64,000 nucleotides of DNA from the IMG/VR virus record IMGVR_UViG_3300028886_000042; one strand, written 5' to 3'. Shown one piece after another: positions 2,488 to 19,197 of this stretch (position 1 is its first letter; each line of letters begins with the position of its first letter). The DNA is from a virus (Duplodnaviria > Caudoviricetes). The notes below the pieces were generated by a model. That model saw nothing but the letters and a program-made list of their open reading frames with translations, had not been told where the DNA came from and ran no database searches. The position numbers and the translations under genes were made by a program.

Positions 2488-2497
2488 TATCTTTGCA
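2488..2497 (+). promoter_or_regulatory. Bacteroidota -7 promoter element TATCTTTGCA; near-leaderless
   Basis: TAnnTTTG whose G lies 5 nt before the ATG at 2500. Confidence 0.6.
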
Positions 2498-2499
2498 GT

Positions 2500-4185
2500 A
2501 TGAAAAAAGAAGAAATTGAAAAAAGGGGTAAAGAGGTTCATAACGGTAAATACAGTTATATTTTCGATAAAGATGAGTATAGGGTAAATGATAAAATAAA
2601 ATGTATTTGCCCTATTCACGGTGTTTTTGAACAAGTGTTAAGGCATCATTTGAAAGGACAGGGTTGCAGACATTGTTCACAAATAAAGAATGCAAGTAAA
2701 ACACGTTTAACAATTGAACAATTCAAGGAGAAAAGTTTTAAAGTACATGGGGATAAATATGATTTATCTAAAGTTGATTATGTAAATGCAGATACAAAGG
2801 TTTGTCTAATATGTCACGAAAAAGATTATAACGGTGACGAACACGGCGAATTTTGGATGACACCAGCACATTATCTTTCAGGTGAACGTTGTCCTAAATG
2901 TGCAAGAAAAAAAATGTTAAAACAGGAATTCATTGACAAATGCAAAGAAAAATTTAAAGGACAGAATTTAAATTTTGATAATTGTGATTATGTTAATGAT
3001 AATACGAAAGTAACTTGTGTATGTGAAATACATGGTGAATTTCAGAAATACCCTTATCAGTTGTTGCGTAAAGGTGAAGGATGTCCTAAATGCAGTTTTG
3101 AGAAAAATTGTTTAAAAAGGAGGAAAACACAAGAAGATTTTATAAAGGATGTCGATAGAATACATGGAGATAAGTATGATATAAGTAATGTTACGTATGA
3201 AGTCGGATATAAAGTGATTTATCCTGTTTGTCATGTAAAATATAAAAACAGTACTGAACATGGTGCTTTTCCTATAATTGCTAATAATTTTCTACAAGGT
3301 TACGGTTGTCCTAAATGCAGTCGTTTACATTCTAATGTGGAAATAGAATTTTCAGATTTTATTTCATCTGTAGATAGTAATGTTGTAATTGAAGATAGAG
3401 AAATACTTGAAGGTAGGGAAATTGACTTATTTTTACCGGATAGAAAAATAGGATTTGAATTCGATGGTCTGTACTGGCATTCAGAAGTTAAGAAGAGTGA
3501 ATTTTATCATTTTGAAAAAACTGATGTTTGTGAGAAAAACGGAGTGAAACTATATCATGTATTCGAAGATGAGTGGGAATTTAAGAAGGATATTGTTAAA
3601 TCTAAAATAAAGTCAATTTTAGGAAAAACCGAAAATAAGATTTATGCAAGAAAGTGTTCGGTTAGGGAAATCAATTCAAAAATATTAAAAGAATTCCTTG
3701 AACACAATCATCTTCAAGGGAATGCAAATTCAAAATATCGCTACGGGTTATATTATAACGAAGAACTTGTTTCTGTAATGTCATTCGGTCATTTGAGGAA
3801 AAACCTTGGAAGTAAAAAAACCGAAAATACATATGAATTGCTAAGGTTCTGTAACAAATTAAATACAACAGTTGTAGGCGGTGCATCTAAACTACTTAAA
3901 CATTTTATTGAAGATATTAAACCGAAGTGTATAATAAGTTATGCAGACAGAAGATGGTCTGACGGAAATCTATATACAAAATTAGGCTTTACACATATTA
4001 GGAACAGTAAACCGAATTATTATTATATTGTTGGTCATAAAAGGGAAAACCGTTTCAAATACCGTAAGGATGTACTTGTTAAAGAAGGTTTTGACCCTGA
4101 TAAATCTGAAAAGGAAATAATGAAGGAACGTGGTTTTCTCAGAATTTACGATTGTGGCTCAATGGTTTTCAGACTTGATTTATAA
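2500..4185 (+). mobile_element. Free-standing Hef-like homing endonuclease: 4 DUF723-like Zn-finger repeats + PD-(D/E)xK/Vsr-like nuclease + GNAT/Mom-like domain
   Basis: Cx2H/Cx9H...GCPKC repeats; EIDLFLP..GFEFDGLYWHS; VVGGASKLL, ISYADRRWS, NLYTKLGF. Confidence 0.75.
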
Positions 4186-4216
4186 TTATATTATATACCT
4201 GTAATAAATCTGAATC

Positions 4217-4936
4217 ATGTCAAAAACAATTATCATAACAGAAAACCAGTACGAACAGTTGGTTAACGACCCTTTGCTTGATGATACACGTGAAGATTTT
4301 TCCTTTAATATACTGAAGAATTATTCATGGGAAAACTGCTGGGAGTTGGATGCCTATTGTCAGCGTTGCGGCTTGACTATGTTAGGAAGAGGTGCAGGAC
4401 GTATTGTGTATGCTTTGGATGACGGTCTGGTTCTGAAAATAGCAAACGGAGACTGTGGACAGAATGAATACGAGGTAAATGTATTTACTGATTTATCAGA
4501 TGAGTTAAAGGAACTTGTCCCTGTTATTTTTGCCTTTGACAAAAACCATATCAGACCTTTATGGATAGTTTCAGAGCGTGTTTTACCGGCTAAATATGTC
4601 GATTTCAAGAAAATATTAGGTATCGGATTCGGAGACTACTATTCAAGTCAGGATATAAGGGATGAGGAAGAAGATTTGATGACATATAATAAATATCCCT
4701 CAAAAGAACAGAATAATGACTTGACTATAACAGGATTCTTGGATGCATTTGAAGAAAAATCGATAAACGGAACACCATACAAAGAACTTATTAGGAATAA
4801 CCGTTGGTTTTCACTTCTTTACTACATGTTGAGTTACGGTTATGTTTCTTCATGGGAACTGGGTATCATTGAGAACTGGGGCTTGGTTCAGAGAAACGGA
4901 AAACCTGTTATTGTTATATTAGACATCGGTATCTGA
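4217..4936 (+). CDS. Protein-kinase-like (PKL-fold) protein
   Basis: LGRGAGRIVY Gly-loop, VLKIA, QNEYE, ENWG, terminal ILDIG. Confidence 0.6.
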   Translation: MSKTIIITENQYEQLVNDPLLDDTREDFSFNILKNYSWENCWELDAYCQRCGLTMLGRGAGRIVYALDDGLVLKIANGDCGQNEYEVNVFTDLSDELKELVPVIFAFDKNHIRPLWIVSERVLPAKYVDFKKILGIGFGDYYSSQDIRDEEEDLMTYNKYPSKEQNNDLTITGFLDAFEEKSINGTPYKELIRNNRWFSLLYYMLSYGYVSSWELGIIENWGLVQRNGKPVIVILDIGI

Positions 4937-5380
4937 TTCGGTTTCCTTTTCCACATATTTTAAGGACAGGTCACGTTGTGCAAACATTTTTTCAACGTCA
5001 TTTATATAATCTCCGAAATGTATGACTATTCTGCACGGTTCGGGATATTCCTCTGCATTGTCAAGATTCTCGTATGCTAATGCAACTATATGGTCTCTAC
5101 AGTCCTGCATACTGTAACAGCAGTTATCCTGTGCAAGGTCTAATATCAGTTCTGTCTTAAGTTCCTTTATATACTGATACATACTGCCGTCTATCATAAG
5201 CGAAGATATATTCTCATTACAGCTCGGTTTTTCAGCCCAACCTTCGGCAAATGTCTCTGAATCATCTTCTGAGAGCATAAAATGATATATATTCATTCCT
5301 TCTGAGTCCGTACCGACATATAATATGAATACGACTTTAAGATTATCCTGTGTAAATCCGTTTTCTATTTCCTCGAACAT
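4919..5380 (-). CDS. Hypothetical acidic protein
   Basis: 153-aa ORF, converges on and overlaps kinase stop by 18 nt. Confidence 0.7.
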   Translation of the reverse strand: MFEEIENGFTQDNLKVVFILYVGTDSEGMNIYHFMLSEDDSETFAEGWAEKPSCNENISSLMIDGSMYQYIKELKTELILDLAQDNCCYSMQDCRDHIVALAYENLDNAEEYPEPCRIVIHFGDYINDVEKMFAQRDLSLKYVEKETESDTDV

Positions 5381-5412
5381 GGTTTTTATCCTTTTTTTCC
5401 GGTTTATTATAA

Positions 5413-5919
5413 TTAATCGTTAAGCAGATATTTTTCTCTTATCTTAGTATATACTTCACCGCAAGCCCTTGCATCATCCAAGGCATTATGATGGTTTTTA
5501 AGCCTTACACCCAAATGTCTGCATATATTGTCAAGTTTATGGTTGCGAAGATTGTTAAGATATTTTCTGCTCAGTTTAAGTGTATCTATATAGATATACT
5601 TATTGTTTGTACCGAATTCCTCATTACATGCATTTATACAGCTTTTCTCAAAGGCTACATTATGTGCTATTATGGGACTGTCACCTATCATTTCGTCAAT
5701 TCTTTTCCAAACTTCCGGAAATGTAGGTGAATCCTTTACATCCTTGTAGTGCAAGCCGTGTGTCATTACACAGTGGTACTCCTCAAGTTTGGTTGGAGGA
5801 CATACAAGTGAATAGAACTCGTCAGTTATTCTGCCGTCCTCGAAAACAACACATCCGATAGAAATTACAGACGCTCTCCAATGCTCAAGTGTCTCGAAAT
5901 CCAAAGCAACATATCTCAT
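5413..5919 (-). CDS. DEDDh 3'-5' exonuclease (DnaQ/epsilon-like)
   Basis: VALDFET, AHNVAFE, IDTL, HNALDDA motifs. Confidence 0.9.
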   Translation of the reverse strand: MRYVALDFETLEHWRASVISIGCVVFEDGRITDEFYSLVCPPTKLEEYHCVMTHGLHYKDVKDSPTFPEVWKRIDEMIGDSPIIAHNVAFEKSCINACNEEFGTNNKYIYIDTLKLSRKYLNNLRNHKLDNICRHLGVRLKNHHNALDDARACGEVYTKIREKYLLND

Positions 5920-5937
5920 TGAAATTCAGTAAATATA

Positions 5938-6792
5938 TTATTCTTCCTTGTCCACGACTGTGATATTCTGAGGTGGTATAGGTTCAAGTGTATATATAGC
6001 AGGGTTGTCAGTCATTGTGTTTTCATCGAAATAGAACTTTATTCCTTTTTCAATCATATCACGTATATATACCATAAGCAGTGCATATTTCTCGTTTTTA
6101 CCTGTCTGTCTGAATGTGTTTGCAATTCTTTTCCATTTATCCGGTTTGTTTAAGAATAGATAAACCCTTTCAGGATGTCCTACAACCCTACCGTTAGCGT
6201 GTGGGGTTATGCCTTTTTCCATAATCTTATCCAAAACTCTTACAGGACAGATATGATAACAGTAGTCGTTAAGGCTTGAAGGTTTGAACTCTTCGTTGAA
6301 TTTCGGGTAAAATACTAAAGTGCATTGTCTGTATCTGTAATCATTAAACAGATTTTCATTGAATGTATTATATACTGAATAATTCCTCGTATCGATTAAT
6401 CCTGCATAATACCAGCCACAGGCATCCATGGTATGAATCAAATCGGTAATTGTTGCATAATCACATCTGATACCGTTTCGGAAAAACAAAGTAACCTCGA
6501 ACCATGAATTATTGTCACGTGTTGTTTTATCGGCTTTATTTGACCTGTTTCTGAACATAATAAGCATATCGTTATCCTTGTTCTTGTCAAAAGCCTCAAA
6601 GGTACATCCTATATTGTTTAAGTTATATCTTCTTCTTATAATCTCTCTTAGCCTCGGAAAAGCATATGTCATTGTCAGTCCTTCTGAAACGAGTTTTCTT
6701 TTCTCGAAAAAACTGTACAGGGGTATTGAAAACGATGATTCCAACACATGTTTAACCGATTCTACTATATCTCTTTCAGTTATCTTACGCAT
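5938..6792 (-). CDS. ADP-ribosyltransferase-fold (KptA/Tpt1-like) C-terminal domain protein
   Basis: YHICPVRVLDKIMEKGITP...RVYLF...IYTLEPIPPQNI. Confidence 0.55.
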   Translation of the reverse strand: MRKITERDIVESVKHVLESSFSIPLYSFFEKRKLVSEGLTMTYAFPRLREIIRRRYNLNNIGCTFEAFDKNKDNDMLIMFRNRSNKADKTTRDNNSWFEVTLFFRNGIRCDYATITDLIHTMDACGWYYAGLIDTRNYSVYNTFNENLFNDYRYRQCTLVFYPKFNEEFKPSSLNDYCYHICPVRVLDKIMEKGITPHANGRVVGHPERVYLFLNKPDKWKRIANTFRQTGKNEKYALLMVYIRDMIEKGIKFYFDENTMTDNPAIYTLEPIPPQNITVVDKEE

Positions 6793-7138
6793 TTTCTGTT
6801 ATATGCAGTAAATTGTTTATCTTAATTAAAATATAATGCCCGTCAATTTTTATTTCGGAGTCTGTTGTTATACGGTTTAATACCGTATTTACAGTTTCGA
6901 TATCTTCTTTTGTTACCGGTAAGAAAAGCCTTAGTATAATTTCGTTATTAACTGTGTTATAGAACAATTTATCATTTTCGTCGAGTAATACAGAGAAAAT
7001 ATGCAAAATATCTTCAAAAGTTACAACATATTCCCCTAACGTAAACTGATGTGTAAATATATATCCGATACACAACGGAAACATCGGGTCTATTGAAACA
7101 TTTTTACCTAATAAATATTCATACTTAAACTCGTCCAT
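6785..7138 (-). CDS. Hypothetical protein
   Basis: 117-aa ORF tightly packed in the minus-strand operon. Confidence 0.7.
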   Translation of the reverse strand: MDEFKYEYLLGKNVSIDPMFPLCIGYIFTHQFTLGEYVVTFEDILHIFSVLLDENDKLFYNTVNNEIILRLFLPVTKEDIETVNTVLNRITTDSEIKIDGHYILIKINNLLHITENA

Positions 7139-7144
7139 CCGTTT

Positions 7145-9103
7145 TTATTTGTTTATCTCTGATTTTATGGTTGCGTCCATGATAAGTCCCTTCCTCATGA
7201 CTTTTTCGAACATATCCTGTGAAATGGAATCGGTAAACAGCTGATAAATACATAAGGCATCTTCCTTCTGTGTTATTCTGTATATTCTGTCCTGCATCTG
7301 CCGGTTTGATGTTTCGAGCCAACTGTAACTGTTGAATATCATTATATGTGAAGCAGTAAGTGTCAGTCCTACGCCGGCAGATTCTATCTGTCCTATGAAT
7401 ACCTTAATCTTAGGATTTTCCATGAATTCCTTTTCTGACTTGTCCTTCTGCTTAGGTGTCATCTTTCCGTCATAGACAACGCATTTCTTACCGTAATACT
7501 CCTTGAATGTGTTTATTTCGCTTGTAAAGTTACATACTATGATAACCTTTTCACCGTCCTCTATGTATTCATCCGCAAGTTTTATGGTATTCGGTATCAT
7601 TTCCTTTGCAAGGAACTGTCTTACAAGCGAACCCTCAACCAACTGTCTGTATTCCTCGTTTGTGTTGTCACCGTTTTCCTCCTGTGCCCTTACATATTCG
7701 TCCCACAGTCTGTTGTACTCCGTCTTCTGTGCTTCATCAAGGTCATAGTACCGTGTATCTAAGAATTTGTTTACCATACCGCCTATTTCTGAGGCAAGTC
7801 TTCTGATATAGACGTGTTTTATCTTCTCCCTCAGTTCATTCAGATTCGTAGAACCTTGTGGTATCATTATCTTAGGACAGTTTTCACTTATATAGTCCCA
7901 AGCGTAGCCCTGTGATTTCATCCTTGACAGTTCTGACGGACTGTAGATTTCCTTACCGTCGCAGTACTTCTTGACATAGTAGTTATAATCATTCGTAACA
8001 TCCGCATCTATCAGTCTGAGAATATGATAAAGATTCATCGGGGTATTCGTAAGCGGAGTTCCGGTAAGCAGATACACATTCTTTATTTTTGATTTCCTCA
8101 GAAAATCATATATGACCTTGTAGCGTATTGAAGTGTTGTTTGACAGTTTCTGTGCCTCGTCTATGATAACACAGTCGAAACCGGAAGTGAATAACGGACT
8201 CTTAAGAAGTGCTTTTCTGATATCAGCCTTACGGTTTGACTTGACTTTCTTGTTAACCATAAGTCCGGTTTTCTTGTCCCTTACCATTACAGGAACCTTA
8301 AGTTTCTCAACCTCTCCGTTCTTACCGTGTATTTCCTCTATTCTGTATTCGTTCTCGTATGGTATTTCATAGTAGTTCTGAACGATGTCATAGTTTATTA
8401 CCGTGAACTTGCTTGTAGTACCGTCCCATTTGGAACCGCTTATGACAACAATATTCTCAGGTTTTTCAAACAGTGATATTTCACGTTTCCATGTAGATTT
8501 CAAAGAGGCAGTTGTTATAACAAGAATTTTTTCGAAACCTCCGTAAAGTGCTGATACACAGGCCGTCATCGTTTTTCCAACCCCCATACTGTCTGCTAAT
8601 ATACACTTTTTGTTGGCTGTAAGAAACTTTACACCCTCTTCCTGATGAGGCTTAAGTTTCATGCCGTATTCAGACAGTTTGTTGTTATACGGACTGAAGT
8701 CTATCTTGACAGACTTGTAATCCACAATGTGCAGTGGTGTAAGAAGTTTTCTCTTATTGATATACATAAGAGTAGGAGGAACTGATTTTCTGTATTGTGC
8801 ATAGCAGTGATATGAATTGCCCATTTCACCTATGACCTTGATAATCTTCAGTCTGTCGGGAATGAAGTCAAGCGAATAGTTCTCCTGTAACTCCTTTCCG
8901 AATTCCTCGGTTATCTTTACCACTCTGTTAACTTCATCCGTTACATAGTCATAGTTGTTCAGAATGTATTCAGTACTGAAACCGTCCTCAGTTAGAAGCA
9001 GTTTGTTGAGTGAATCCATCTTCTTGAAGTAGAGTATCTGATTGTTTGTTCCGTTATACTCCCTAAGTAACTTGTATGCCTTGCTTATATTACTCTTTTT
9101 CAT
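7145..9103 (-). CDS. SNF2-family (SMARCAL1/HARP-like) helicase; probable start MKKSN at 9103
   Basis: LADSMGVGKT, IIDEAQ, LTGTP, GVGLTLT, QMQDRIYR; promoter lies just upstream of 9103. Confidence 0.9.
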   Translation of the reverse strand: MKKSNISKAYKLLREYNGTNNQILYFKKMDSLNKLLLTEDGFSTEYILNNYDYVTDEVNRVVKITEEFGKELQENYSLDFIPDRLKIIKVIGEMGNSYHCYAQYRKSVPPTLMYINKRKLLTPLHIVDYKSVKIDFSPYNNKLSEYGMKLKPHQEEGVKFLTANKKCILADSMGVGKTMTACVSALYGGFEKILVITTASLKSTWKREISLFEKPENIVVISGSKWDGTTSKFTVINYDIVQNYYEIPYENEYRIEEIHGKNGEVEKLKVPVMVRDKKTGLMVNKKVKSNRKADIRKALLKSPLFTSGFDCVIIDEAQKLSNNTSIRYKVIYDFLRKSKIKNVYLLTGTPLTNTPMNLYHILRLIDADVTNDYNYYVKKYCDGKEIYSPSELSRMKSQGYAWDYISENCPKIMIPQGSTNLNELREKIKHVYIRRLASEIGGMVNKFLDTRYYDLDEAQKTEYNRLWDEYVRAQEENGDNTNEEYRQLVEGSLVRQFLAKEMIPNTIKLADEYIEDGEKVIIVCNFTSEINTFKEYYGKKCVVYDGKMTPKQKDKSEKEFMENPKIKVFIGQIESAGVGLTLTASHIMIFNSYSWLETSNRQMQDRIYRITQKEDALCIYQLFTDSISQDMFEKVMRKGLIMDATIKSEINK

Positions 9104-9123
9104 CGGAAAACCTTCTGAATATA

Positions 9124-9156
9124 TGCAAATATACGACTTTCGTTCCAAAGTGCAAA
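9124..9156 (-). promoter_or_regulatory. Bacteroidota sigma-A promoter TTTG-N19-TATATTTGCA for the helicase operon
   Basis: Exact consensus and spacing on the minus strand. Confidence 0.8.
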
Positions 9157-9157
9157 C

Positions 9158-9165
9158 TATTTATA
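9158..9165 (+). promoter_or_regulatory. Putative late promoter TATTTATA
   Basis: 21 nt upstream of ATG 9187. Confidence 0.6.
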
Positions 9166-9186
9166 TTTGAATTTTCATACACTATA

Positions 9187-9711
9187 ATGCCAAACAACAT
9201 AAATGCGCCGATAACGAGAAACAACAAGTTCTATTCGGAAGAGGATTTCGAATATGAGACTAATCTGCTGATGGAATACCTTGAGGAGGATTTGAATCAG
9301 ACGGTTGTCGTATATCAGGTTGACAGAGTAAAAACAAATGTAAGTGCAGTGTACAAGGAAGCTGAGGACGGTCATATAAGATTCAAGGCTCCGCGTGAAA
9401 TACCGTGTATGTATGAGATTTCGGAAGCAAACGTGAAAACATATGACTCAAAAACAAATACAGGTGTTTACGTGGTTAACGGAAATCTTACTGTATACAC
9501 AATGCCTATGATTCTTGAAAAATACAAATGCGACATAAGGCGCGGTGACTATATAGGTGTTCTGATAGATACCGGAAGAATGGTTTATTTCTCGGTAGTG
9601 AATGACGGAAAAGTGAACACTTCGAACAGAAACTATGTCGGAGCCTATAAACCGTCATGGCTTAAGATTGAATGTGCACCTGTTCCTGATAATGAATTTA
9701 ACGGAAAATAA
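9187..9711 (+). CDS. Neck/head-closure protein (T4 gp14-like); start corrected to 9187 (MPNNIN)
   Basis: FYSEEDF..LLMEYL..TVVVYQVD..VYKEA pattern; upstream in-frame extension overlaps helicase promoter. Confidence 0.6.
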   Translation: MPNNINAPITRNNKFYSEEDFEYETNLLMEYLEEDLNQTVVVYQVDRVKTNVSAVYKEAEDGHIRFKAPREIPCMYEISEANVKTYDSKTNTGVYVVNGNLTVYTMPMILEKYKCDIRRGDYIGVLIDTGRMVYFSVVNDGKVNTSNRNYVGAYKPSWLKIECAPVPDNEFNGK

Positions 9712-9720
9712 TAGTGAGAG

Positions 9721-10857
9721 ATGCGAAAAGGACAGCCTAAGAAATTTATAACACCGATGAACTTCAGAAGGAAATCATACGGTACTGAGAGGAGGAGAAA
9801 CTTTGCAAAGGAAATACTGTACAAGGAAACGGAATTTCCCAAACCTCTGAACTATGAGGATATTGACTATGCGTTCGAGGAATTTGTAAAGGAATCCGTG
9901 GCAAAGTTCAATAATGAAGTATATCCGGTATTTACGCTGTACAGTAACCAGCGTTTCAGTGAATATTCACAGAATTGGGAACATACCGACTCGGAAGGTA
10001 ACCTGCTTCTTAACTTCATAACAATGAACAGGGACAATAACCCTAAACCAGGTTCTAATCAGGGAGACTTAAGAAATATTCCCGGTGACAGATTCTATAC
10101 CATGTCCGTAAAAACGGTTCTTGATGATAACGGTACTGAAAGCTATGAGATATACTCAATGAAACAGCCTTACAGCGTCGATTTACAATACAGAATAAAT
10201 TTCGTCACCTCAACCTTTGAGAAGATAAACGGATTCAATAACAGGATAAACGAGCTTTTCAAGTCAACACAGTGCTACATAAGGCCCAACGGTCATTTCA
10301 TACCTATGGTTGTTGAAGAGGTCAATGACGAGACTTCATACAGTGTAGATGAACGTAAATTCTTCGTACAGTCAATCGGAATCAAGGTCATGGCTTATAT
10401 AATAAACAGCACTGACTTCAGGATTGACAAGAGACCCAAACGAATAATCATGATGTCTGAAGGTGATGCAAAGAGACCTTCACCAAAGGTTGACATTGAG
10501 GAATACACCTCTGAAAATCCGTTAAGGAACCGTGCTGTTGACATAACAATATCATTCGAGGAATATCATGACAAGGTTGAATTCGTGATAGATACGGACG
10601 TGAACATAGAAACATTCAGTGAAACGAATATAAGGAGTTTCAGGGTTTTCGTCAACGGTACTATGTACTACACTGAAAAGGGTTTCAGTCTGAAGAACGG
10701 TGATAACGTGAAGATTAAGATAAACAGATTCGACATGTCTGATAAATCGGAACTCGTTTTCAAAGGATATAACCCTAACGAAGTGTACAACTCGGAAATT
10801 GTACCTGAAAACGTAAGCGACGAACCCGTAAAAGAGGAAAGAATCATTATTGAATAA
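9721..10857 (+). CDS. Tail terminator/completion protein (T4 gp15-like)
   Basis: DIDYAFEEFV, PYSVDLQYRINF; located between neck and sheath. Confidence 0.6.
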   Translation: MRKGQPKKFITPMNFRRKSYGTERRRNFAKEILYKETEFPKPLNYEDIDYAFEEFVKESVAKFNNEVYPVFTLYSNQRFSEYSQNWEHTDSEGNLLLNFITMNRDNNPKPGSNQGDLRNIPGDRFYTMSVKTVLDDNGTESYEIYSMKQPYSVDLQYRINFVTSTFEKINGFNNRINELFKSTQCYIRPNGHFIPMVVEEVNDETSYSVDERKFFVQSIGIKVMAYIINSTDFRIDKRPKRIIMMSEGDAKRPSPKVDIEEYTSENPLRNRAVDITISFEEYHDKVEFVIDTDVNIETFSETNIRSFRVFVNGTMYYTEKGFSLKNGDNVKIKINRFDMSDKSELVFKGYNPNEVYNSEIVPENVSDEPVKEERIIIE

Positions 10858-10874
10858 ATTTTCTTCAGAACGTC

Positions 10875-10910
10875 AAAAAAAGCAAGCATCAGAAAGAGTG
10901 CTTGTTTTTT
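10875..10910 (+). terminator. Intrinsic terminator (possibly bidirectional)
   Basis: A-tract-GCAAGCA...TGCTTG-TTTTTT. Confidence 0.7.
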
Positions 10911-10915
10911 CCGTT

Positions 10916-11043
10916 CCAGACCTGGGTCTAGTACTAGTAATATCTTACTTAAGTTTATTTTTTTATATTTTAATTATATAAAAAAATACTAGTACTAGTA
11001 AGTATACCAAAAGAAAAAGAAAATATATAAAAGAAAAAGAAAA
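10916..11043. repeat. Palindrome and direct-repeat cluster (origin candidate)
   Basis: CTAGTACTAGTAA at 10928-10940 and 10989-11001; AT-only inverted repeat between them; AAAAGAAAAAGAAAA at 11009-11023 and 11029-11043. Confidence 0.6.
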
Positions 11044-11144
11044 GGTAAAAACAGCCTTAAAGGAACGACTGATATGCTATTCTTGTTTTTCGTTAAAAAA
11101 TGGATGATAAATATCATGTTTACGTACTTTTAGGTTTTCGCCTG

Positions 11145-11154
11145 ATATTTATTA
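11145..11154 (+). promoter_or_regulatory. Putative late promoter ATATTTATTA
   Basis: Upstream of sheath gene. Confidence 0.6.
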
Positions 11155-11183
11155 TAAAATAATTTGTTAAATAAAAGAACATA

Positions 11184-14100
11184 ATGGCAAATACAAGTAA
11201 TAATAGTACAAGACGGACTCACGTAAGCCCCGGTGTCTATACAAGAGAAATCGAGCTTAATTACGCAGCAAAGTCCCTTGGTATCACTACTTTAGGACTT
11301 GCCGGTGAAACTGTTAAAGGCCCTGCATTCCAACCCATTCCAATTGAGAATTGGAGACAGTACCAGCAGTATTTCGGAGGTACGGACACTGAGAAGTTCA
11401 GAGGAAGTCAATATCCTAAGTATGAGTTACCATATATTGCACAGTCATATTTGAAACAGTCTAATCAGTTGGAAGTTGTACGTGTATTAGGTCTGTCCGG
11501 TGTTAACGCAGGCCCTGTATGGATTGCAACGGCAGTTGGTAAAGGGAAATATAACAATATGCCTTTATTCGTACTTCGTTCAAGAGGAGAACATCTTAAG
11601 GCTTCATTCAAGAAAGAAGGTCAAGACGGTTGTCCTGATGAGTATGAATATGACACTATCAGATATTATACCAAATCAGTTACATTAAGTGCCCCTTCTG
11701 ATATTACAAATGACAGTCAATGTACACCAACGGCAACAATCACGACTACTAGAAATTGGCAAGATTTGAATGTCAACAACTATGGCCGTTTCACTATTGA
11801 TGTTAAACGATATGATGATGAAGGAGATGCTAGTAAACATTACAGTGTATCATTGAATCCCGGTGATAAAGACTACATCAAGAAAGTAATCGGAACCGAC
11901 CCTGAAATAGGTGATGCTGAAATCTATGTTGAGGAGGTATATGACGTTGCTCTCGGTAAACTGATTGAAAGTGGTGACATTACCCAAATCAACACAACTT
12001 TAGTTTACTATGATTACAAGTACATTAAACCTTCACATGCAGATGTTGATGACATTGTATTACAGGAGGAAGATACGCTCAGACGCAGTGATGTAGGTAA
12101 GCGTATGCTTTATACAAGCGAATCGGTTAACGGAAATGGAGATAAACTTGAAGTCCATATAAAGGGTACAAACGGAAAATGGACTAAAGACTATGGTACT
12201 GACGGTGTAATATATACTGTCGTTGCTTATACAACAACCGAAGGAAAACGTGTATACTACTATGGTACAGAAGCTGGTAAAGAGGAGCAGATAAAAGCAC
12301 CGACTACCGGTAGTGATACAGATGAACATCTGTACACAGAGGCTGCAATGGTTCTGTCACGCGGTTCTTATTACATTAAACCTCAAAGTTCAGAAATTGT
12401 TGTACCTTTGACACTTGATACAAACAACTATAAGGAGCAGTACAGATTCGCTTCTACACCTTGGGTACTGTCAGAACTTAAGGGTGATGCCAAGAATATC
12501 GAGGTTAATAAACTGTTCAGATTCCATACCATTTCAGACGGTGATTCCTCAAATACTGAGGTTAAGATTTCAATTGAGAATATTGACGTTTCAAACGGTA
12601 CGTTCGATGTTGTTGTACGTGATTTCTATGATGCAGATGATTCTCAGATTGTTTACGAGAGATTCAAGGGTGTTAACCTTATCCCCGGTGATAAGAACTA
12701 CATTTCACTGAGAATCGGTTCGTATGATGAGGAATATGAGAATGTTTCAAGTTTTATTACTGTAGAAGTCAACGAGAACGAAAAGACAGCACATTCTATT
12801 CCATGCGGTTTCATGGGTTATCCTGTAAGAAACTATAACGGTACAGGTGTTGTTACGCCAAATGTGACTACACAAAATTTACCTTCAATTCCATATGTAG
12901 TCTATAATACGAATGTTGACGAGGATATAAGAATCACAAAGCAGTACTTCGGTATTTCAAATATTACCGGTTTCGATACCGACCTGTTGAAGTACAAGGG
13001 TGTTGAGACTTATGATGACAACACATTCACTGACTGCTTCCACCTTGATTCACGTATTCTTACAGCAGGAGAACAATCTTCGGAATCCACAGAAACACAG
13101 GAAATCACTATTGACGGTGTAGGCGGTTTCACATGGCAGACCGTAGGTATCGGAAATCAGACCATGTACGGTGTTATGCCTAAGATGGGTACTGAGGAAG
13201 ATGTAGCAGAGACAATCTATGAAGATAAGAGATACCGTAAGTTCACATTTGCATTCTACGGCGGTTTCGACGGTTGGGACTATTACAGAACTTCAAGAGG
13301 CAACGGTGATGACTTCAGATATACCAAGTACAAGGGTTCAATTGACAAGGTATCAGGACAAGGTACTATGGTATCAGTATTGAATAATCCGGAAGCATAC
13401 GGTTTCGACGAGGATGAGAAGATTCTGAACTCAGACTACTATGCATATCTGTCAGCTTACCGCAAGTTCGCTAACCCGAAGGCTATTGACATTAACGTGT
13501 TTGCAACTCCCGGTATTGACTACGTAAATCAGAATTCACTCGTAGGCGAGGTTATCACAATGATTGAGGAGGAACGTGCAGACTCTGTATATGTTGTTAC
13601 AACACCTGACAAGCCTTATGGAGCCAGTGATTCGGAGTTCGAAATGTTCACGCCTTCTGATGCAGTAATGAATCTTGAGGAATCTGAAATCGACAGTAAC
13701 TATACATGTACTTACTATCCATGGTGCAAGTATTTCGATGCAGACAGCAACAAGTTCATCTATCTGCCTCCTACACGCGACGTAGTACGTAACTTCGCAT
13801 ATACCGACAATACCAAATATCCATGGTTCGCAGCAGCCGGATGGTATCGCGGTGAAATCGAGGACAGCGGTGTAAAGCCTAAGAAGTCACTTAAACTCGG
13901 TGAACAGGATATCCTCTATGCAAACCGACTGAACTTCATTAACACCTTTGCAAAGGAAGGCATGAAGGTATGGGGTGACAAGAACCTGCAAGTACATGAG
14001 AGTCAGATGAACAGAATCTCAAAGAGACGTTTGCTGCTGAGAATCAGAAAACTATGCTCAATCGCTTGTATCGGACTTATTTTCGACCCGAACGACAATA

Positions 14101-14321
14101 ATACAAAGCAGTCATTTGAAAGTGCCGTTAAACCGGTTCTTGACAATGTAATGGCTAACCGTGGTATTGCTGATTGGAAACTTGAAGTTGATGACAGTCA
14201 GGAAGCAAGGGATAGAATGGAAATTCCTGCAAAGATATACATTCAAGTAATTCCGAATACAGAATTTATTGATATTTCCTTCAGTGTCACCCCGCAAGGG
14301 AGTAATTGGGACAATATTTAA
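11184..14321 (+). CDS. Contractile tail sheath protein
   Basis: VSPGVYTREI, GETVKGPAF, FATPGID, YPWFAAAG, WGDKNLQ, RRLLLRI, FDPND. Confidence 0.95.
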   Translation: MANTSNNSTRRTHVSPGVYTREIELNYAAKSLGITTLGLAGETVKGPAFQPIPIENWRQYQQYFGGTDTEKFRGSQYPKYELPYIAQSYLKQSNQLEVVRVLGLSGVNAGPVWIATAVGKGKYNNMPLFVLRSRGEHLKASFKKEGQDGCPDEYEYDTIRYYTKSVTLSAPSDITNDSQCTPTATITTTRNWQDLNVNNYGRFTIDVKRYDDEGDASKHYSVSLNPGDKDYIKKVIGTDPEIGDAEIYVEEVYDVALGKLIESGDITQINTTLVYYDYKYIKPSHADVDDIVLQEEDTLRRSDVGKRMLYTSESVNGNGDKLEVHIKGTNGKWTKDYGTDGVIYTVVAYTTTEGKRVYYYGTEAGKEEQIKAPTTGSDTDEHLYTEAAMVLSRGSYYIKPQSSEIVVPLTLDTNNYKEQYRFASTPWVLSELKGDAKNIEVNKLFRFHTISDGDSSNTEVKISIENIDVSNGTFDVVVRDFYDADDSQIVYERFKGVNLIPGDKNYISLRIGSYDEEYENVSSFITVEVNENEKTAHSIPCGFMGYPVRNYNGTGVVTPNVTTQNLPSIPYVVYNTNVDEDIRITKQYFGISNITGFDTDLLKYKGVETYDDNTFTDCFHLDSRILTAGEQSSESTETQEITIDGVGGFTWQTVGIGNQTMYGVMPKMGTEEDVAETIYEDKRYRKFTFAFYGGFDGWDYYRTSRGNGDDFRYTKYKGSIDKVSGQGTMVSVLNNPEAYGFDEDEKILNSDYYAYLSAYRKFANPKAIDINVFATPGIDYVNQNSLVGEVITMIEEERADSVYVVTTPDKPYGASDSEFEMFTPSDAVMNLEESEIDSNYTCTYYPWCKYFDADSNKFIYLPPTRDVVRNFAYTDNTKYPWFAAAGWYRGEIEDSGVKPKKSLKLGEQDILYANRLNFINTFAKEGMKVWGDKNLQVHESQMNRISKRRLLLRIRKLCSIACIGLIFDPNDNNTKQSFESAVKPVLDNVMANRGIADWKLEVDDSQEARDRMEIPAKIYIQVIPNTEFIDISFSVTPQGSNWDNI

Positions 14322-14355
14322 TTAACTAAAAATTAGTAATTTATATAACTTTATT

Positions 14356-14387
14356 AAAGTGGGAGTGTAAATAACTTCCACTTTTTT
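14356..14387 (+). terminator. Intrinsic terminator after sheath
   Basis: AAAGTGGGAGT-loop-ACTTCCACTTT-TTT. Confidence 0.75.
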
Positions 14388-14408
14388 ATATAAAAATAAC
14401 ATTATTTA

Positions 14409-14442
14409 TTTGTAAGTTATCCGAAAAAGCAGTAGTTTTGCA
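14409..14442 (+). promoter_or_regulatory. Bacteroidota promoter TTTG-N20-TAGTTTTGCA; near-leaderless
   Basis: Consensus; ATG 14446 lies 6 nt after the G. Confidence 0.75.
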
Positions 14443-14445
14443 CAA

Positions 14446-16104
14446 ATGAGAGAAAAAAGGTCATTTGAAGATACATTAAAGTTATTCAGGGAAGTACACG
14501 GTGACAGATATGAATACAACAAAGATACATATCATGGAAGTTCTGATAAGATGGAAATGAAATGCCGTGTTTGTGGTAATGTATTCTATCAGACCCCTAA
14601 CAAGCATTTAATGGGAAGAGGATGTCCGGTATGTGGAAAAACAAAAAAACTCACAACGGAAGAGTTTATTTCAAGGGCAAAGGAAAGATACGGTGATAAA
14701 TTCACCTATGAAAAAACAGAATACACAAATCAGAGGGCAAAACTTATAGTTACCTGTAATATACATGGTGATATTGAAGTCAATGCAAAGCAGTTTCTTA
14801 ACGGTTGCGGATGCAAAAAGTGCAGAGAGGATGAATATAACAGATTCAAGTCGGAATTTGAAGAAAGGGCACGTAAAATACACCCTATTGAAGAAGAATT
14901 AGACTATTCTGAGAGTGTTTATGTGAATAATCATACCCCTTTAAGGATAATATGCCATAAAAAAGATGAATACGGTATTGAACACGGCGTATTTTATCAG
15001 ACACCGGCACATCATATGAGCGGTCAGGGCTGTCCTAAATGTAACGGAAACCTAAAAATGACACCGGATGAGTTTATTTCCAAGGCAAAAACGGTTCATG
15101 GTGATAAATTCACTTATTTTAGTGAAAAATACGTTTCATACAATGAAAGTACGGAGATAAAATGCAACAAATGCGGAAAAATATTCAGACAGACCCCACA
15201 TAATCACCTTTTAGGCAAGGGATGCCCGTTCTGTGGCTGTAATATATCGAAACCTGAGTCCGATATTAACGAATTCATATCAAAATATGCAAAAACATAC
15301 ACAAATAACCGTAAAATACTTGATAATTCAAAAGAAATTGACATTTTAATTGAAAATAAACCTATAGCATTTGAATATGACGGACTTATATGGCATTCAG
15401 AGAAATTCGGAAAGGATAAAAACTATCATTTAAGAAAAACAGACGAATGCATGGAAAAAGGTATACAGTTATATCATATCTTCGAAGATGAATGGGTTTT
15501 TAAGCGTAAAATAGTCGAATCAAGGATAAAAAACATACTGGGTGTTACCGAAAACAGAATATTTGCAAGGAAATGTACGATAAACGAACTGAACTACAGT
15601 GATACAAGAAAATTCCTTAATGAAAACCATATTCAGGGTGAATGTAACTCAAAATACAACTACGGACTTTACTATAAAGGTGAACTGGTATCTGTAATGA
15701 CGTTCGGACATCTAAGGAAAAACCTCGGAAGTAACGGTAATGAAAATGAATACGAACTGTTAAGGTTCTGTAATAAACTTGATACAACAGTTGTAGGCGG
15801 TGCTTCAAAACTTCTGAAATATTTCACTGACAGACTTAAACCTGAACGTATTATCAGTTATGCCGACAAAAGATGGAGTAACGGTAATCTGTATAGACAA
15901 TTAGGCTTTACACATATAAAGGACAGTAAACCGGGTTATTTCTATGTAATAGGACAGAAAAGGGAAAACAGATTCAAATACCGTAAGGATGTACTGGTAA
16001 AAGAAGGTTTCGACAAGAATAAAAGCGAATATGAAATAATGATAGGCAGAGGTATATACAGAATATATGACTGTGGAATGATGGTTTTTGAAAAGAAATT
16101 TTAA
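14446..16104 (+). mobile_element. Free-standing Hef-like homing endonuclease (4 Zn-finger repeats + nuclease + GNAT/Mom-like domain), paralog of 2500..4185
   Basis: EIDILI..AFEYDGLIWHS; VVGGASKLL; ISYADKRWS; NLYRQLGF. Confidence 0.75.
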
Positions 16105-16115
16105 TTAAAATAGAT

Positions 16116-16385
16116 ATGTTTGAGAAATTTAAGGATTTTTTCCGTAATCTAAAAAGAAAAGAGAATAAAACATGCATATCTGATGATTTTTGCTTAACAG
16201 TGACTTTCGGTGATAATGCATGGAGAATTGAGAGCAAGCCGATTGAAGGAAAATCAAATATCAAACTGTTTGCTGATAATAAGATTGTTTTTGAAGGTTC
16301 ATATTCTGAACTTGTTTCAAAAATTAAGGAAATTAATGCAATTAAACCTTTTATAAAAACAATTTATGAAAATAAGCTATATTGA
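16116..16385 (+). CDS. Small hypothetical protein with N-terminal amphipathic helix
   Basis: MFEKFKDFFRNLK..., 89 aa. Confidence 0.6.
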   Translation: MFEKFKDFFRNLKRKENKTCISDDFCLTVTFGDNAWRIESKPIEGKSNIKLFADNKIVFEGSYSELVSKIKEINAIKPFIKTIYENKLY

Positions 16386-16399
16386 ACTATATTTATAAC

Positions 16400-16581
16400 A
16401 AGAGGAGGGTCGTTACTTCTTTCACGCCCTCCAATCGAAACTCGTTACAGACGTACTGCCAATGAAAATGGTTGTGCTGCAAAATACTTGTAGGCAACTT
16501 AGTGCTTTAAACAACTTTATGTTGGTAGGTACAGACAAGCATTCATAAAAGAGGATGTGTTTAATGATACACCCTCTTTTT
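16400..16581 (+). ncRNA. Candidate ~180-nt structured RNA between a late-type motif (16389-16397) and a terminator
   Basis: Own promoter motif and terminator; multiple stems; more GC-rich than flanks; only a 28-codon ORF inside. Confidence 0.5.
16547..16581 (+). terminator. Intrinsic terminator closing the candidate RNA
   Basis: AAAAGAGG-ATGTGT-loop-ATACAC-CCTCTTTTT. Confidence 0.7.
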
Positions 16582-16619
16582 ATAATTGAGTTAAATCCTA
16601 TATGTCTCCCAAATCAAAC

Positions 16620-16656
16620 AAAAAAAGAAGGTAACAGATAACTACCTTCTTATTTT
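16620..16656 (-). terminator. Intrinsic terminator of tail tube gene
   Basis: AAGAAGGTA/TACCTTCTT stem with A-tract on the left. Confidence 0.7.
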
Positions 16657-16677
16657 TATGTACGTAAAAAAAATGAA

Positions 16678-17166
16678 TTAGAAACTCAAGATACAATACT
16701 GAGGTCTGATAGTCAATGTGATTTCAGCCAAAGAATCATCATCATAACTCAATTCACCGAATTCTACATTTGTAATCATAGCAGATTTTATAATCCATTG
16801 AGAAACTGCTGTTCCTGTCGGATCGAGCATTTCCAGTATCAAATCTCTCTTATAAGCAGCAGCATAGCCTTGTCGTCCGGTAATAGATTCTGAATGTAAT
16901 CTTACCCATTCCATTACTGCCTGTGAAGCAGAAGGGCCGATTGGGTCTCTAAGTGTTACATTTATATTTTCCCAGATATAGCGTCCAACTACCCAGCTTG
17001 AAGTATTAAGGAACTGTATTTCAGTCTCATTTTGGCTCAGTTTTGGACGTGAACAAGAAGCTACCCACCACTCCTGTATGCCTAAGTCAGAGGGAAATCT
17101 GAGCAAGAATCGGTTTTTGCGAAGTGGCTCATACTCCGTCGGCATCTTCAAAATTAAATCTCCCAT
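16678..17166 (-). CDS. Tail tube protein (T4 gp19-like)
   Basis: EPLRKNRF, GRYIWENINVTLRD, VMEWV, YKRDLILEMLD, GELSYD. Confidence 0.9.
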   Translation of the reverse strand: MGDLILKMPTEYEPLRKNRFLLRFPSDLGIQEWWVASCSRPKLSQNETEIQFLNTSSWVVGRYIWENINVTLRDPIGPSASQAVMEWVRLHSESITGRQGYAAAYKRDLILEMLDPTGTAVSQWIIKSAMITNVEFGELSYDDDSLAEITLTIRPQYCILSF

Positions 17167-17223
17167 GTCAATAAGTCAATTATATTTTTTTATTTTTATA
17201 TTCTCTTTTTAATATTTTTCAAT

Positions 17224-17311
17224 TATAAATATGTTAAATTATGTTTTTTCCTTGTTTTTTCGGTGTATTTGCAGTATTTTTGCAAAAGGAACTAATATTT
17301 ACTTATAAATA
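17224..17311. promoter_or_regulatory. Overlapping divergent control region: late motifs on - (17224-17232, 17304-17311) and host promoter TATTTTTGCA on + (17275-17284)
   Basis: Motifs visible directly. Confidence 0.6.
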
Positions 17312-17322
17312 CTGAAACTATA

Positions 17323-19179
17323 ATGACAAAAGAAGAGAGAACCGAGAGATTCAAATTAAAGGCTGTAAAAGTTCATAAGGGCTATTACATATATGATAAA
17401 GTAGATTATGTAAATAATACCACAAAGGTATGTATAATATGTCCTTTGCATGGAGAGTTCTGGCAAGAGCCTTCTTCGCATTTACGTGGCGGTACATGTC
17501 CTAAGTGTGCAAATAAAAGGAGGGGTGATGCATTAAGGGGTAATAGGGAAGAATTTATTGAAAGAGCAAAAGAAACACATGGTGACAAATATGATTATTC
17601 AAAGGTTGTATATGAAAGTATGATGAAACCTGTTGAGATAATATGTTCTGAACATGGTTCTTTTTGGCAAATTCCCATGCAGCATGTAAAAGGGCAGGGA
17701 TGTCCTAAGTGTGCAGGACGTTACAGGACAAATGATGAAATTATCAGAATGATGAAAGAAGCACATCCTGATGACAATTACGATTACAGTAAGGTTGAGT
17801 TCACTAAGATGCACAACAAGGTTTGCATAATATGTCCTGAGCATGGAGAGTTTTGGCAAACACCGGCAAAGCATATCAGAGGTCAGGGCTGTCCTAAATG
17901 TGGAAACAGCAAGAGTAATAAAAACAGAAGGATTACAGTTGAAAAATTCAAGGAGAAGTGCAGTGTATTACACAACGGAAAATATAATTATGACAAAGTG
18001 GAATTTGATAACGTACATGATAAGGTTAAGATAGTTTGTCCTGTTCACGGTGAATTTGAACAAATTGCCTGTGACCACCTTAATGGACATGGGTGTACGC
18101 AATGTGCTATAGATAAATCTAAGTCAAACACAGAGGAATTCATAAGAAAATCAAGGGAAATACATGGTGACAAGTATGGTTACTCAAAGGTTGAATATAA
18201 AGGTTCTAAAAATAAGGTATGCATAATATGTCCTGAGCATGGAGAGTTCTGGCAGACACCTGAATCACATTTAAAGGGTTGTGGATGTCCTAAGTGCGGA
18301 AAGATTATTTCAAAGGGTGAGGAGGAAATCTATGATTTCGTAAGTAATTTAGTCGGTTCCGATAATATCATAAGGAATGACCGTGAAATACTTGACGGTA
18401 AGGAGATTGACATATACATACCGTCATTAAAAATCGGAATAGAGTACAACGGTGTTGTATGGCATTCTGAGAAATTCGGAAAGGATAAGAATTATCATGT
18501 GGACAAGCTGAACTGTGCAAATGAAAAGGGTATTAGCCTTATTCAGATATTCGAGGATGAGTTTATAGACCACAAGGAAGTTGTTTTTGCAAAAATAAGG
18601 CATACGTTAGGGTTTGACAAGTATCAGGAAAAGGTTTACGGAAGAGAGTGTACCATAAGGGAAATAGACAAAGAGACAGCAAGGGAGTTCCTTGACAGAA
18701 ATCATATACAGGGTTATGCCATATCCTCAAAGCATTTGGGTGCTTATCATAATGACAGCCTTATAGGTGTAATGTCATTCAACATACTGAAGATAGGCGG
18801 TGCAGAATGGGAACTTACGAGGTTTGCGACTGATATAACAAAGTTGTGTTGCGGGGTAGGAGGTAAATTACTTAAGTATTTCATAAAGTGTTACAGACCC
18901 TTATATATAAAGTCATTTGCTGACAGAAGATGGACTGTTAATCAGAATGATAATCTCTATACGAAGTTAGGTTTTGTTCTTGATAATATACTACCACCGG
19001 ATTACAGATATATTGAGACCGGCTCATATAAGAGAATACACAAGTTCAATTACAGGAAGAACATACTCAGCAAGAAATATAAGTTACCGTTATATATGAC
19101 AGAGAGTGAAATGTGTAATGAAATCGGAGCAGACAGGGTTTGGGACTGTGGTTTGCTTAAATATGTTTGGAGAAAATAG
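17323..19179 (+). mobile_element. Free-standing Hef-like homing endonuclease (5 Zn-finger repeats + nuclease + GNAT/Mom-like domain)
   Basis: Five CxxHG.F.Q....H..G..C..C units; EIDIYIP..GIEYNGVVWHS; GVGGKLL, SFADRRW, NLYTKLGF. Confidence 0.75.
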
Positions 19180-19197
19180 CATATTTATAATAAAGAT

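What the first reader, a model, noticed from the sequence alone, without database searches (positions are those of the whole stretch)
2500..19179. Three nucleases fused to a GNAT/Mom-like domain: possible single-gene cut-and-protect elements
Seen: 2500, 14446 and 17323 end in a ~190-aa domain with VVGGASKLL/GVGGKLL, IxS[YF]AD and NLYxxLGF; the fourth nuclease (45168) lacks it. 4039-4095 and 15958-16014 match at 52/57 nt, suggesting recent duplication or exchange. Known: GxxSKLL and LYxKLGF are GNAT acyl-CoA motifs; EL.R and S[YF]AD occur in Mu Mom, a GNAT-fold adenine-modifying enzyme; Hef-like endonucleases have this overall layout. Inference: the domain may modify or read modified DNA, making each gene a selfish restriction-modification-like unit for competing with co-infecting phages.
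Basis: partly seen in the sequence, partly recalled or inferred. Interest (0 to 1): 0.7.

Follow-up and report, generated by a model that had tools for sequence, protein, structure and literature searches.

The report
Hef-type homing endonucleases with Mom-like domain
Three genes of an uncultured jumbo phage are copies of a common, already described selfish DNA-cutting gene (the Hef-type homing endonuclease), and each really does end in a relative of phage Mu's DNA-modifying enzyme Mom, whose job in these proteins has been guessed at in print but never tested.

Summary
Genes 2500-4185, 14446-16104 and 17323-19179 share one layout: 4-5 Zn-ribbon repeats, an EDxHD/Vsr-like nuclease, and a ~187-aa C-terminal GNAT domain. 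The best structural match of that domain is Mu Mom (8bv8). Gene 45168 lacks the domain, and the 52/57-nt match is real.

The genes behave as free-standing homing endonucleases. The first is a clean 1.77-kb insertion that six close relatives lack. The two around the tail-tube gene are present or absent among related jumbo phages.

The nuclease+Mom core is a very large known family (PHROG 559/3339, more than 17,000 clusters, "Hef-like homing endonuclease"). The cut-and-protect reading was published by Iyer et al. 2021. This scan has flagged the same fusion many times on other genomes.

What the Mom-like domain does remains open. It packs rigidly on the nuclease and is under purifying selection. 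It keeps Mom's His, Arg, Asp, Arg and Tyr in all copies. Mom's essential Ser is Gly in 17323, and Mom's essential second Arg varies family-wide.

The 52/57 stretch is the most conserved peptide, not evidence of recent exchange. This is a new member of a known kind, of modest interest.

The parts
2445..4216 (+). Inserted cassette holding the first homing endonuclease gene. It is absent from six close relatives, where the flanking genes abut.
   Evidence: blastn collinearity with L084, L085, L087 and L088 stops at 2444-2452 and resumes at 4223-4349.
2486..2497 (+). Promoter-like motif AGTAnnTTTGCA, 2 nt before the ATG of gene 1
   Evidence: 6 matches in the window against 0.21 expected, all on the + strand, three of them directly upstream of the three genes.
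2500..3324 (+). Gene 1 (2500-4185, 561 aa): N-terminal array of 4 Zn-ribbon repeats (CapR/DUF4379 type), the presumed target-recognition module
   Evidence: Four GxGCxxC repeats are visible in the translation (counted by script). Pfam CapR and DUF4379 hits are weak. PHROG 681 and 4605 also hit.
3325..3624 (+). Gene 1: EDxHD/Vsr-like nuclease domain (E307, D309, H327, D357)
   Evidence: The profile of this region hits I-Bth0305I 3r3p at E 1.4e-5, with the catalytic D, H and D columns aligned. The tetrad is intact in all six own copies.
3625..4182 (+). Gene 1: Mom-family GNAT domain (H404, E446, R449, G460, S463, D483, R485, Y492)
14431..14442 (+). Promoter-like motif AGTAnnTTTGCA, 3 nt before the ATG of gene 2
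14446..15243 (+). Gene 2 (14446-16104, 552 aa): 4 Zn-ribbon repeats
15244..15543 (+). Gene 2: EDxHD nuclease domain
15544..16101 (+). Gene 2: Mom-family GNAT domain, 70% identical to that of gene 1, with all six Mom active-site equivalents present
17273..17284 (+). Promoter-like motif AGTAnnTTTGCA, 38 nt before the ATG of gene 3
17323..18312 (+). Gene 3 (17323-19179, 618 aa): 5 Zn-ribbon repeats
   Evidence: (DUF4379 at 2.6e-13, DUF723 at 1.3e-10)
18313..18615 (+). Gene 3: EDxHD nuclease domain
18616..19176 (+). Gene 3: Mom-family GNAT domain, divergent (about 40% identical to gene 1), with Gly in place of Mom's essential Ser (GVGG instead of GGAS)
   Evidence: Pfam Mom scores only 19.1 bits, below its cut-off.
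45168..46616 (+). Comparator: a fourth Zn-ribbon nuclease with a shorter nuclease type and no Mom-like domain
   Evidence: Two further genes of this type lie elsewhere in the contig.

Best explanation
The three genes are free-standing homing endonuclease genes of the Hef type, and the 160-kb contig holds six of them. Each is a self-contained cassette inserted between conserved phage genes, and most carry their own promoter-like motif. The N-terminal array of 4-5 Zn-ribbon repeats diverges fast between copies and probably reads a long DNA target in genomes that lack the cassette (inferred). The EDxHD/Vsr-like nuclease probably cuts that target (inferred from homology to I-Bth0305I and Hef). Recombinational repair from the co-infecting carrier genome would then copy the cassette in, which is the standard homing model. 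The C-terminal Mom-family GNAT domain is an integral, rigidly packed half of the conserved nuclease+GNAT core. I think it most likely engages the DNA at or beside the cut site through the Mom-type basic insertion and an adenine-binding cleft. I put transfer of an acyl or aminoacyl group to a base, which is the cut-and-protect idea, at about 40% for genes 1 and 2, and lower for gene 3, which lacks the Mom serine.
For: Layout and family: all three genes match PHROG 559 and 3339 ('homing endonuclease') over their full length at E 1e-90 to 1e-162. 418 phage records hold the core, often annotated 'Hef-like homing endonuclease' and once 'nuclease/acetyltransferase'. In T4-like phages the gene sits alone between the gp23 and gp24 genes. 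LIMEstone1 has Hef-like genes beside its tail-tube and baseplate genes (PMC3296691).

Nuclease: the profile hits I-Bth0305I 3r3p at E 1.4e-5 with the catalytic residues aligned. That paper places Hef in the EDxHD family (PMC3239194), and Hef of phage U5 cleaves nrdB (PMC2988022).

Mobility: gene 1 is a 1.77-kb insertion absent from six relatives whose flanking gene is 85-86% identical. A different, 36%-identical copy sits in the same slot in more distant relatives. Occupancy of the sheath-tube and tube-orf19918 slots varies among 34 related loci.

Mom-like domain: GNAT fold with Mom as the top Foldseek hit and the longest alignment, 160 residues against about 130 for other GNATs. The nuclease+GNAT core folds as one unit, with pLDDT 95 and pTM 0.90. 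Between orthologues (window against L004) pN is 0.15 where pS is saturated at 0.77, the same as for the nuclease at 0.13. The equivalents of Mom H58, R111 and Y159 are invariant in 156 sequences. The Ser and Asp equivalents are kept in 85-87%, similar to the 80% retention of the nuclease tetrad.
Against: No cleavage, homing or modification has been measured for any of these proteins, and no target site is identified. I-Bth0305I works without any GNAT domain, so the nuclease does not need one in principle. The equivalent of Mom's essential R151 is Arg in only about 55% of relatives. Mom Y59 is always Ile or Leu here. The essential Ser is Gly in gene 3 and in one other copy. So Mom-type chemistry cannot be assumed.
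Confidence: 0.8

Rival explanations
1. Single-polypeptide cut-and-protect unit, the reading of the first reader and of Iyer et al. 2021. The Mom-like domain is an active transferase that puts an acyl or aminoacyl group on adenine N6 in the carrier's own DNA. The fused nuclease then spares the carrier genome but cuts unmodified host DNA or competitor-phage DNA.
For: The domain belongs to the Mom family and has the Mom fold. Genes 1 and 2 keep all six tested Mom active-site equivalents, H, R, S, D, R and Y. An invariant Gly-x-Ala/Gly loop and the GNAT Ser and Tyr point to donor binding (roles of S114 and Y149 from PMC7261163). Active-site retention matches that of the nuclease. The idea is published for jumbo phages (PMC7824862).
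Against: The essential Arg151 equivalent is variable and Tyr59 is lost family-wide, and the Ser is lost in gene 3. Six differently targeted copies in one genome fit site-specific homing better than general protection. An enzyme acting in trans would also protect the co-infecting target genome. The insertion polymorphism is what homing predicts. No modification data exist. Silva et al. 2026 built their search profile from sequences that contain only Mom domains, and report no test of a nuclease fusion.
Confidence: 0.3
2. The Mom-like domain is a pseudo-enzyme. It would be a non-catalytic clamp that contributes DNA binding, base flipping or oligomerisation to the nuclease, having kept the cleft but lost transfer chemistry.
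For: The domain packs rigidly on the nuclease (pTM 0.90). Invariant basic residues lie in the Mom-type insertion (R515, R518, K523). Mom-essential positions are variable (R485 about 55%, S463 85%, Y59 equivalent never Tyr). Copies lacking the Ser, such as gene 3, remain otherwise well conserved.
Against: A purely structural role does not explain the invariant His, Glu-x-x-Arg, Tyr and donor-loop Gly across sequences whose synonymous sites are saturated.
Confidence: 0.35
3. The genes are not mobile elements. They would be phage weapons that degrade host DNA or exclude superinfecting phages, kept for the phage's benefit.
For: There are many copies per genome: nine nuclease genes with Zn-ribbon arrays in 160 kb. 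Iyer et al. propose an attack on host or superinfecting DNA.
Against: Close relatives lack individual copies at otherwise collinear sites, and different copies occupy the same slot. That pattern fits selfish insertion rather than a conserved beneficial arsenal. The 20% of family members with a broken nuclease tetrad also fit the decay cycle of homing genes.
Confidence: 0.1

Closest known systems
Hef (phage U5) and 'Hef-like' free-standing homing endonucleases of T4-like, ViI-like, Campylobacter and jumbo phages (PHROG 559/3339)
   Same: The nuclease + Mom-like core matches over its full length. The N-terminal DNA-binding modules are variable. The genes stand alone between conserved, often virion, genes and occur in many copies per genome.
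   Different: No near-identical relative is in the phage collection, and the best protein match there is 58% identical. I could not read the original Hef paper, so the link to U5 Hef rests on annotations and on PMC3239194 and PMC2988022.
I-Bth0305I, prototype of the EDxHD (Vsr-like) homing endonucleases, PDB 3r3p
   Same: The nuclease domain is homologous, with the catalytic Asp, His and Asp aligned.
   Different: I-Bth0305I is intron-encoded, uses NUMOD/HTH motifs for DNA binding, ends with the nuclease and has no GNAT domain.
Phage Mu Mom (PDB 8bv8), a Gly-tRNA(Gly)-dependent adenine-N6 modifying GNAT
   Same: It is the best structural match, including the Mom-specific insertion. It shares ELxR, the α3 Ser, S[FY]AD-x-R and the α4 Tyr.
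   Different: Here the domain is fused behind a nuclease rather than standing alone. The Tyr59 equivalent is Ile or Leu. The Arg151 equivalent is variable in the family. A canonical Gly-x-Ala/Gly donor loop replaces Mom's Asn-Ser-Glu. Sequence identity is only 17-19%, and activity is untested.
Jumbo-phage 'Mom domain fused to REase-fold endoDNase' systems predicted by Iyer, Anantharaman, Krishnan, Burroughs and Aravind 2021
   Same: It is the same architecture and the same proposed cut-and-protect logic.
   Different: That is a prediction only. The insertion polymorphism found here points to homing rather than a fixed restriction-modification-like defence.

Membership tests
EDxHD / Vsr-like homing endonucleases (I-Bth0305I, Hef) | Conserved catalytic residues Glu, Asp ... 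His ... Asp in a Vsr-like nuclease domain | tested here: met
   E307, D309, H327 and D357 in gene 1. The tetrad is intact in all six own copies and in 125 of 156 relatives. The profile hits 3r3p at E 1.4e-5 with these columns aligned.
EDxHD / Vsr-like homing endonucleases (I-Bth0305I, Hef) | Vsr-like three-dimensional fold of the nuclease domain | not tested
   The core model is confident, but I ran no fold search on the nuclease part alone. The evidence is from the sequence profile only.
Free-standing homing endonuclease genes | Sporadic presence or absence at the same site in otherwise collinear related genomes | tested here: met
   Gene 1 is absent from L084-L088 and L093. Genes 2 and 3 are variably present among L004-L037.
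Free-standing homing endonuclease genes | Site-specific cleavage of the cassette-less allele, and gene conversion in mixed infection | not testable with these tools
   This needs purified protein and a culturable host.
Mom family (Pfam PF25680) | Score above Pfam's gathering threshold of 27.1 bits | tested here: inconclusive
   Gene 1 scores 31.5 bits and passes. Gene 2 (23.4) and gene 3 (19.1) fall below. All three domains are mutually homologous.
Mom family (Pfam PF25680) | GNAT fold with the Mom-specific insertion between the late strands | tested here: met
Mom family (Pfam PF25680) | Residues essential for Mom activity: H58, Y59, R111, S124, D149, R151, Y159 (numbering of Silva et al. 2026) | tested here: inconclusive
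   By the hhalign and motif alignment, H, R111, D, R151 and Y159 are present in all six copies. S124 is present in four and is Gly in gene 3 and C1:38022. Y59 is Ile or Leu in all. The His register is from my own re-alignment of the motif, not from hhalign.
Mom family (Pfam PF25680) | Catalyses adenine-N6 modification of dsDNA from Gly-tRNA(Gly) | not testable with these tools
   No biochemical data exist for any nuclease-fused member that I could find.
GNAT superfamily | GNAT fold with the β4-α3 donor-binding loop (Q/R-x-x-G-x-G/A) | tested here: met
Restriction-modification-like cut-and-protect unit | The modification made by the protein blocks cleavage by the same protein | not testable with these tools
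   No modification or cleavage data exist.

The most novel reading that the evidence does not exclude
The Mom-like domain of Hef-type homing endonucleases is a working DNA-base acyl or aminoacyl transferase. It would mark the adenine at the enzyme's own recognition site, giving the carrier genome chemical immunity to its own homing nuclease. That would make a one-polypeptide, site-specific cut-and-protect system. Because the domain keeps the canonical GNAT Gly-x-Ala loop that Mu Mom lacks, it may draw on acyl-CoA rather than charged tRNA.
Probability: 0.3. Interest if true: 0.7.

Novelty: new member of a known kind. Interest (0 to 1): 0.3.

Why it matters
The genes themselves are ordinary: one more set of a very abundant selfish phage gene. 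What remains worth knowing is general rather than specific to this window. More than 17,000 protein clusters join a homing nuclease to a Mom-type GNAT domain that is conserved as strongly as the nuclease, and nobody has tested what it does. If it modifies DNA, homing endonucleases would have a chemical self-immunity mechanism, and a second class of Mom-type DNA hypermodification would exist. If it does not, it is a widespread example of an enzyme fold reused as a DNA clamp. The clean empty-site alleles found here (L084-L088) give a concrete candidate substrate for such a test.

Tried and rejected
1. A homodimer prediction of the Mom-like domain (two copies, alignment A3) scored 0.18 and 0.02 against a mark of 0.42. 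That gives no verdict and says nothing either way about dimerisation.

2. A near-identity DNA search of the first 20 kb against 50,697 phage records found nothing.

3. A single-sequence phmmer search and a profile hmmsearch of the GNAT domain against PDB sequences did not reach Mom. Only a weak hit to glyphosate N-acetyltransferase appeared. The link to Mom came from Pfam, hhalign and fold search.

4. NCBIfam gave no useful hit.

5. The idea of recent exchange at the 52/57-nt stretch is rejected as unsupported.

6. Domain-level shuffling between paralogues: gene 2's GNAT domain is closest to gene 1's (70%), while its nuclease is marginally closest to another copy (53% against 46%). The difference is a few residues over 105 aa, so I do not claim it.

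7. Coupled decay of the nuclease and Mom active sites: there is no association (odds ratio 1.2, p=0.64).

8. dN/dS could not be quantified because synonymous sites are saturated.

9. Inverted repeats that could explain the inverted tube block: only weak AT-rich matches were found.

10. The original Hef paper (PMC1275590) is not held.

11. Literature searches for an experimental test of a nuclease-Mom fusion found none.
Full report
**What is there.** The window is part of a 160.5-kb IMG/VR virus contig that CheckV estimates to be 44% complete. It is a jumbo myovirus, with a tail sheath gene at 11184-14321, a tail tube gene at 16678-17166 on the minus strand, and a baseplate hub gene at 22038.

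All three have the same layout:
- 4, 4 and 5 Zn-ribbon repeats of about 60 aa, each ending in GxGCPxC. Pfam finds CapR, DUF4379 and DUF723.
- A nuclease domain of about 100 aa.

ORF 45168-46616 has the repeats and a shorter nuclease but no C-terminal domain. The 52/57-nt match is exact as stated. A search of the whole contig finds six genes with the C-terminal domain, three of them outside the window. It also finds three Zn-ribbon nucleases without that domain.

**The C-terminal domain is a Mom-family GNAT.**
- Pfam Mom (PF25680) scores 31.5 bits for gene 1 against a cut-off of 27.1. Genes 2 and 3 score 23.4 and 19.1 bits, below the cut-off.
- PHROG 1384 'Mom-like DNA modification protein' gives 3e-14 and 4e-12 for genes 1 and 2.
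- An AF2 model built on a 45-sequence alignment is confident, with pLDDT 92 and pTM 0.81.
- Foldseek ranks Mu Mom (8bv8) first at E 2.8e-8, ahead of ordinary GNATs.
- hhalign against the Mu Mom sequence taken from AF083977 pairs ELxR, the α3 Ser, S[FY]AD-x-R and the α4 Tyr.

**How much of Mom's active site survives.** Silva et al. 2026 (PMC13219725) show that Mom transfers glycine from Gly-tRNA(Gly) to adenine N6. They list H58, Y59, R111, S124, D149, R151 and Y159 as cleft residues. R111A, S124A and R151A were inactive or nearly so, and D149A was greatly reduced. Karambelkar et al. 2020 use numbering 10 lower.

In gene 1 the equivalents are H404, L405, R449, S463, D483, R485 and Y492. The His register is my own re-alignment of the NH[IL]QG motif. 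I examined 156 sequences: six own copies plus the 150 best of 17,583 cluster representatives.
- His, Arg449 and Tyr492 are invariant, as are E446, G460, Q406 and K523.
- Ser463 is kept in 85% and Asp483 in 87%.
- Arg485 is kept in only about 55%, with Ser in about 25%.
- The Tyr59 position is always Ile or Leu.

All six own copies keep H, R, D, R and Y. Four have the Ser. Gene 3 and the copy at C1:38022 have Gly (GVGG) instead.

For comparison, the nuclease tetrad is intact in 80% of the same set. Loss of the two active sites is not correlated. The loop before the Ser is G-G/A-A/G, with G460 invariant. That is the canonical GNAT donor-binding loop, where Mu Mom has N-S-E. What this means for donor choice is my inference only.

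**The nuclease is EDxHD/Vsr-like.** A profile of the central region hits the I-Bth0305I catalytic domain (3r3p) at E 1.4e-5. The columns of its D196, H213 and D222 align to D309, H327 and D357. Members also hit Pfam MTES_1575, Vsr and DUF559 weakly. Taylor et al. 2011 (PMC3239194) place the 'Hef type' phage endonucleases in this family. Edgell et al. 2010 (PMC2988022) report that Hef of phage U5 cleaves nrdB.

**The nuclease and GNAT form one conserved core.** An AF2 model of residues 275-561 gives pLDDT 95 and pTM 0.90, meaning the relative placement of the two domains is confident. Between gene 2 and its orthologue in L004, non-synonymous divergence is 0.13 for the nuclease, 0.15 for the GNAT domain and 0.22 for the Zn repeats. 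Synonymous sites are saturated at about 0.8. So both domains are under comparable purifying selection. Among the six paralogues the N-terminal arrays are 17-33% identical, and the two core domains are 32-70% identical.

**The genes behave as mobile cassettes.**
- Gene 1: in the six closest relatives, whose upstream gene is 85-86% identical, the flanking genes orf1281 and orf4217 lie next to each other, about 20 to 290 nt apart, with no endonuclease gene between them.
- DNA collinearity ends at window 2444 and resumes at about 4223. The cassette is therefore about 2445-4216, including its own upstream motif.
- More distant relatives carry a different copy, 36% identical, in the same slot. One relative has neither.
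- Genes 2 and 3: among 34 loci found through the tail-tube protein, the sheath-tube and tube-orf19918 intervals are filled in some, such as L004, L007, L008, L013 and L017. They are empty in others, such as L005, L006, L014, L019, L032 and all the more distant loci.
- In cultured phages the same core occurs in 418 records at 1,037 places, with up to 12 per Campylobacter phage. It is annotated 'Hef-like homing endonuclease', or once 'putative nuclease/acetyltransferase protein'.
- In two T4-like genera the gene sits alone between the gp23 and gp24 genes. From memory, T4 has segD in that slot.
- LIMEstone1 has a Hef-like gene next to its tail-tube gene.

**The 52/57-nt stretch.** It is the best 57-nt window of the gene pair. 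It encodes the invariant peptide of the Mom-type insertion. 15 of its 19 codons are identical, against a 58% baseline at identical residues (p=0.05 before correcting for picking the best window). I do not read it as recent exchange.

**What is already known.** Iyer et al. [quoted passage not shown] They propose that momylation protects the phage while the nuclease attacks host or superinfecting DNA. Silva et al. 2026 built their search profile from sequences containing only Mom domains and tested two randomly chosen homologues. I found no experimental test of a fusion. This scan has already flagged and followed up the same fusion on many other genomes, with the same verdict.

**Verdict.**
- Observation: confirmed.
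- Interpretation: partly supported. The fold and family are right. The mechanism is untested and already in print. The recent-exchange inference is not supported.
- Best reading: free-standing Hef-type homing endonucleases (about 0.8).
- Role of the Mom-like domain: open, with roughly 0.3-0.4 for a working transferase and a similar weight for a non-catalytic DNA-engaging module.
- Novelty: new member of a known kind.

Noticed in passing
window 2486-2497, 14431-14442, 17273-17284, 42024-42035, 46676-46687, 57083-57094: The motif AGTAnnTTTGCA occurs 6 times, all on the + strand, against 0.21 expected. It lies 2-38 nt before the ATG of each of the three endonuclease genes. In the whole contig it occurs 13 times, and 4 of those precede Mom-fusion genes. 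It contains TAnnTTTG, which from memory is the -7 box of Bacteroidota promoters. That would suggest host-RNAP transcription, very short leaders and a Bacteroidota host.
   Followed up: partly
window 5938-7138 (minus strand): Two ORFs of 284 and 117 aa lie between orf5413 and the helicase gene and have no Pfam or PHROG match. They are absent from the close relatives L084-L088, where those two genes abut. This is another indel of unknown nature.
   Followed up: partly
window 16678-20325; loci L005, L007, L008, L037: The block of tail tube, endonuclease and orf19918 is inverted relative to the sheath gene in the window, L004 and L008, compared with L005, L006 and L007. L007 and L008 carry the same three genes in opposite orientation. 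No convincing flanking inverted repeat was found.
   Followed up: partly
window 45168-46616; contig C1:31999-33222 and C1:72708-74090: A second endonuclease family uses the same Zn-ribbon repeat arrays but a shorter nuclease (IECQGxQHF type) and has no Mom-like domain. The repeat array therefore looks like a module shared between two nuclease types.
   Followed up: no
contig C1:38022-41212 (outside the window): Two Mom-fusion endonuclease genes lie in tandem with overlapping stop and start codons. The first has a different, non-repeat N-terminal region and the Ser-to-Gly variant.
   Followed up: no
loci L089, L090, L091, L094 at about 7200-9000: In more distant relatives a different Hef-type gene occupies the slot after orf1281, and the kinase-like gene orf4217 is missing. 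L092 has neither.
   Followed up: no
The cause is unknown.
   Followed up: no
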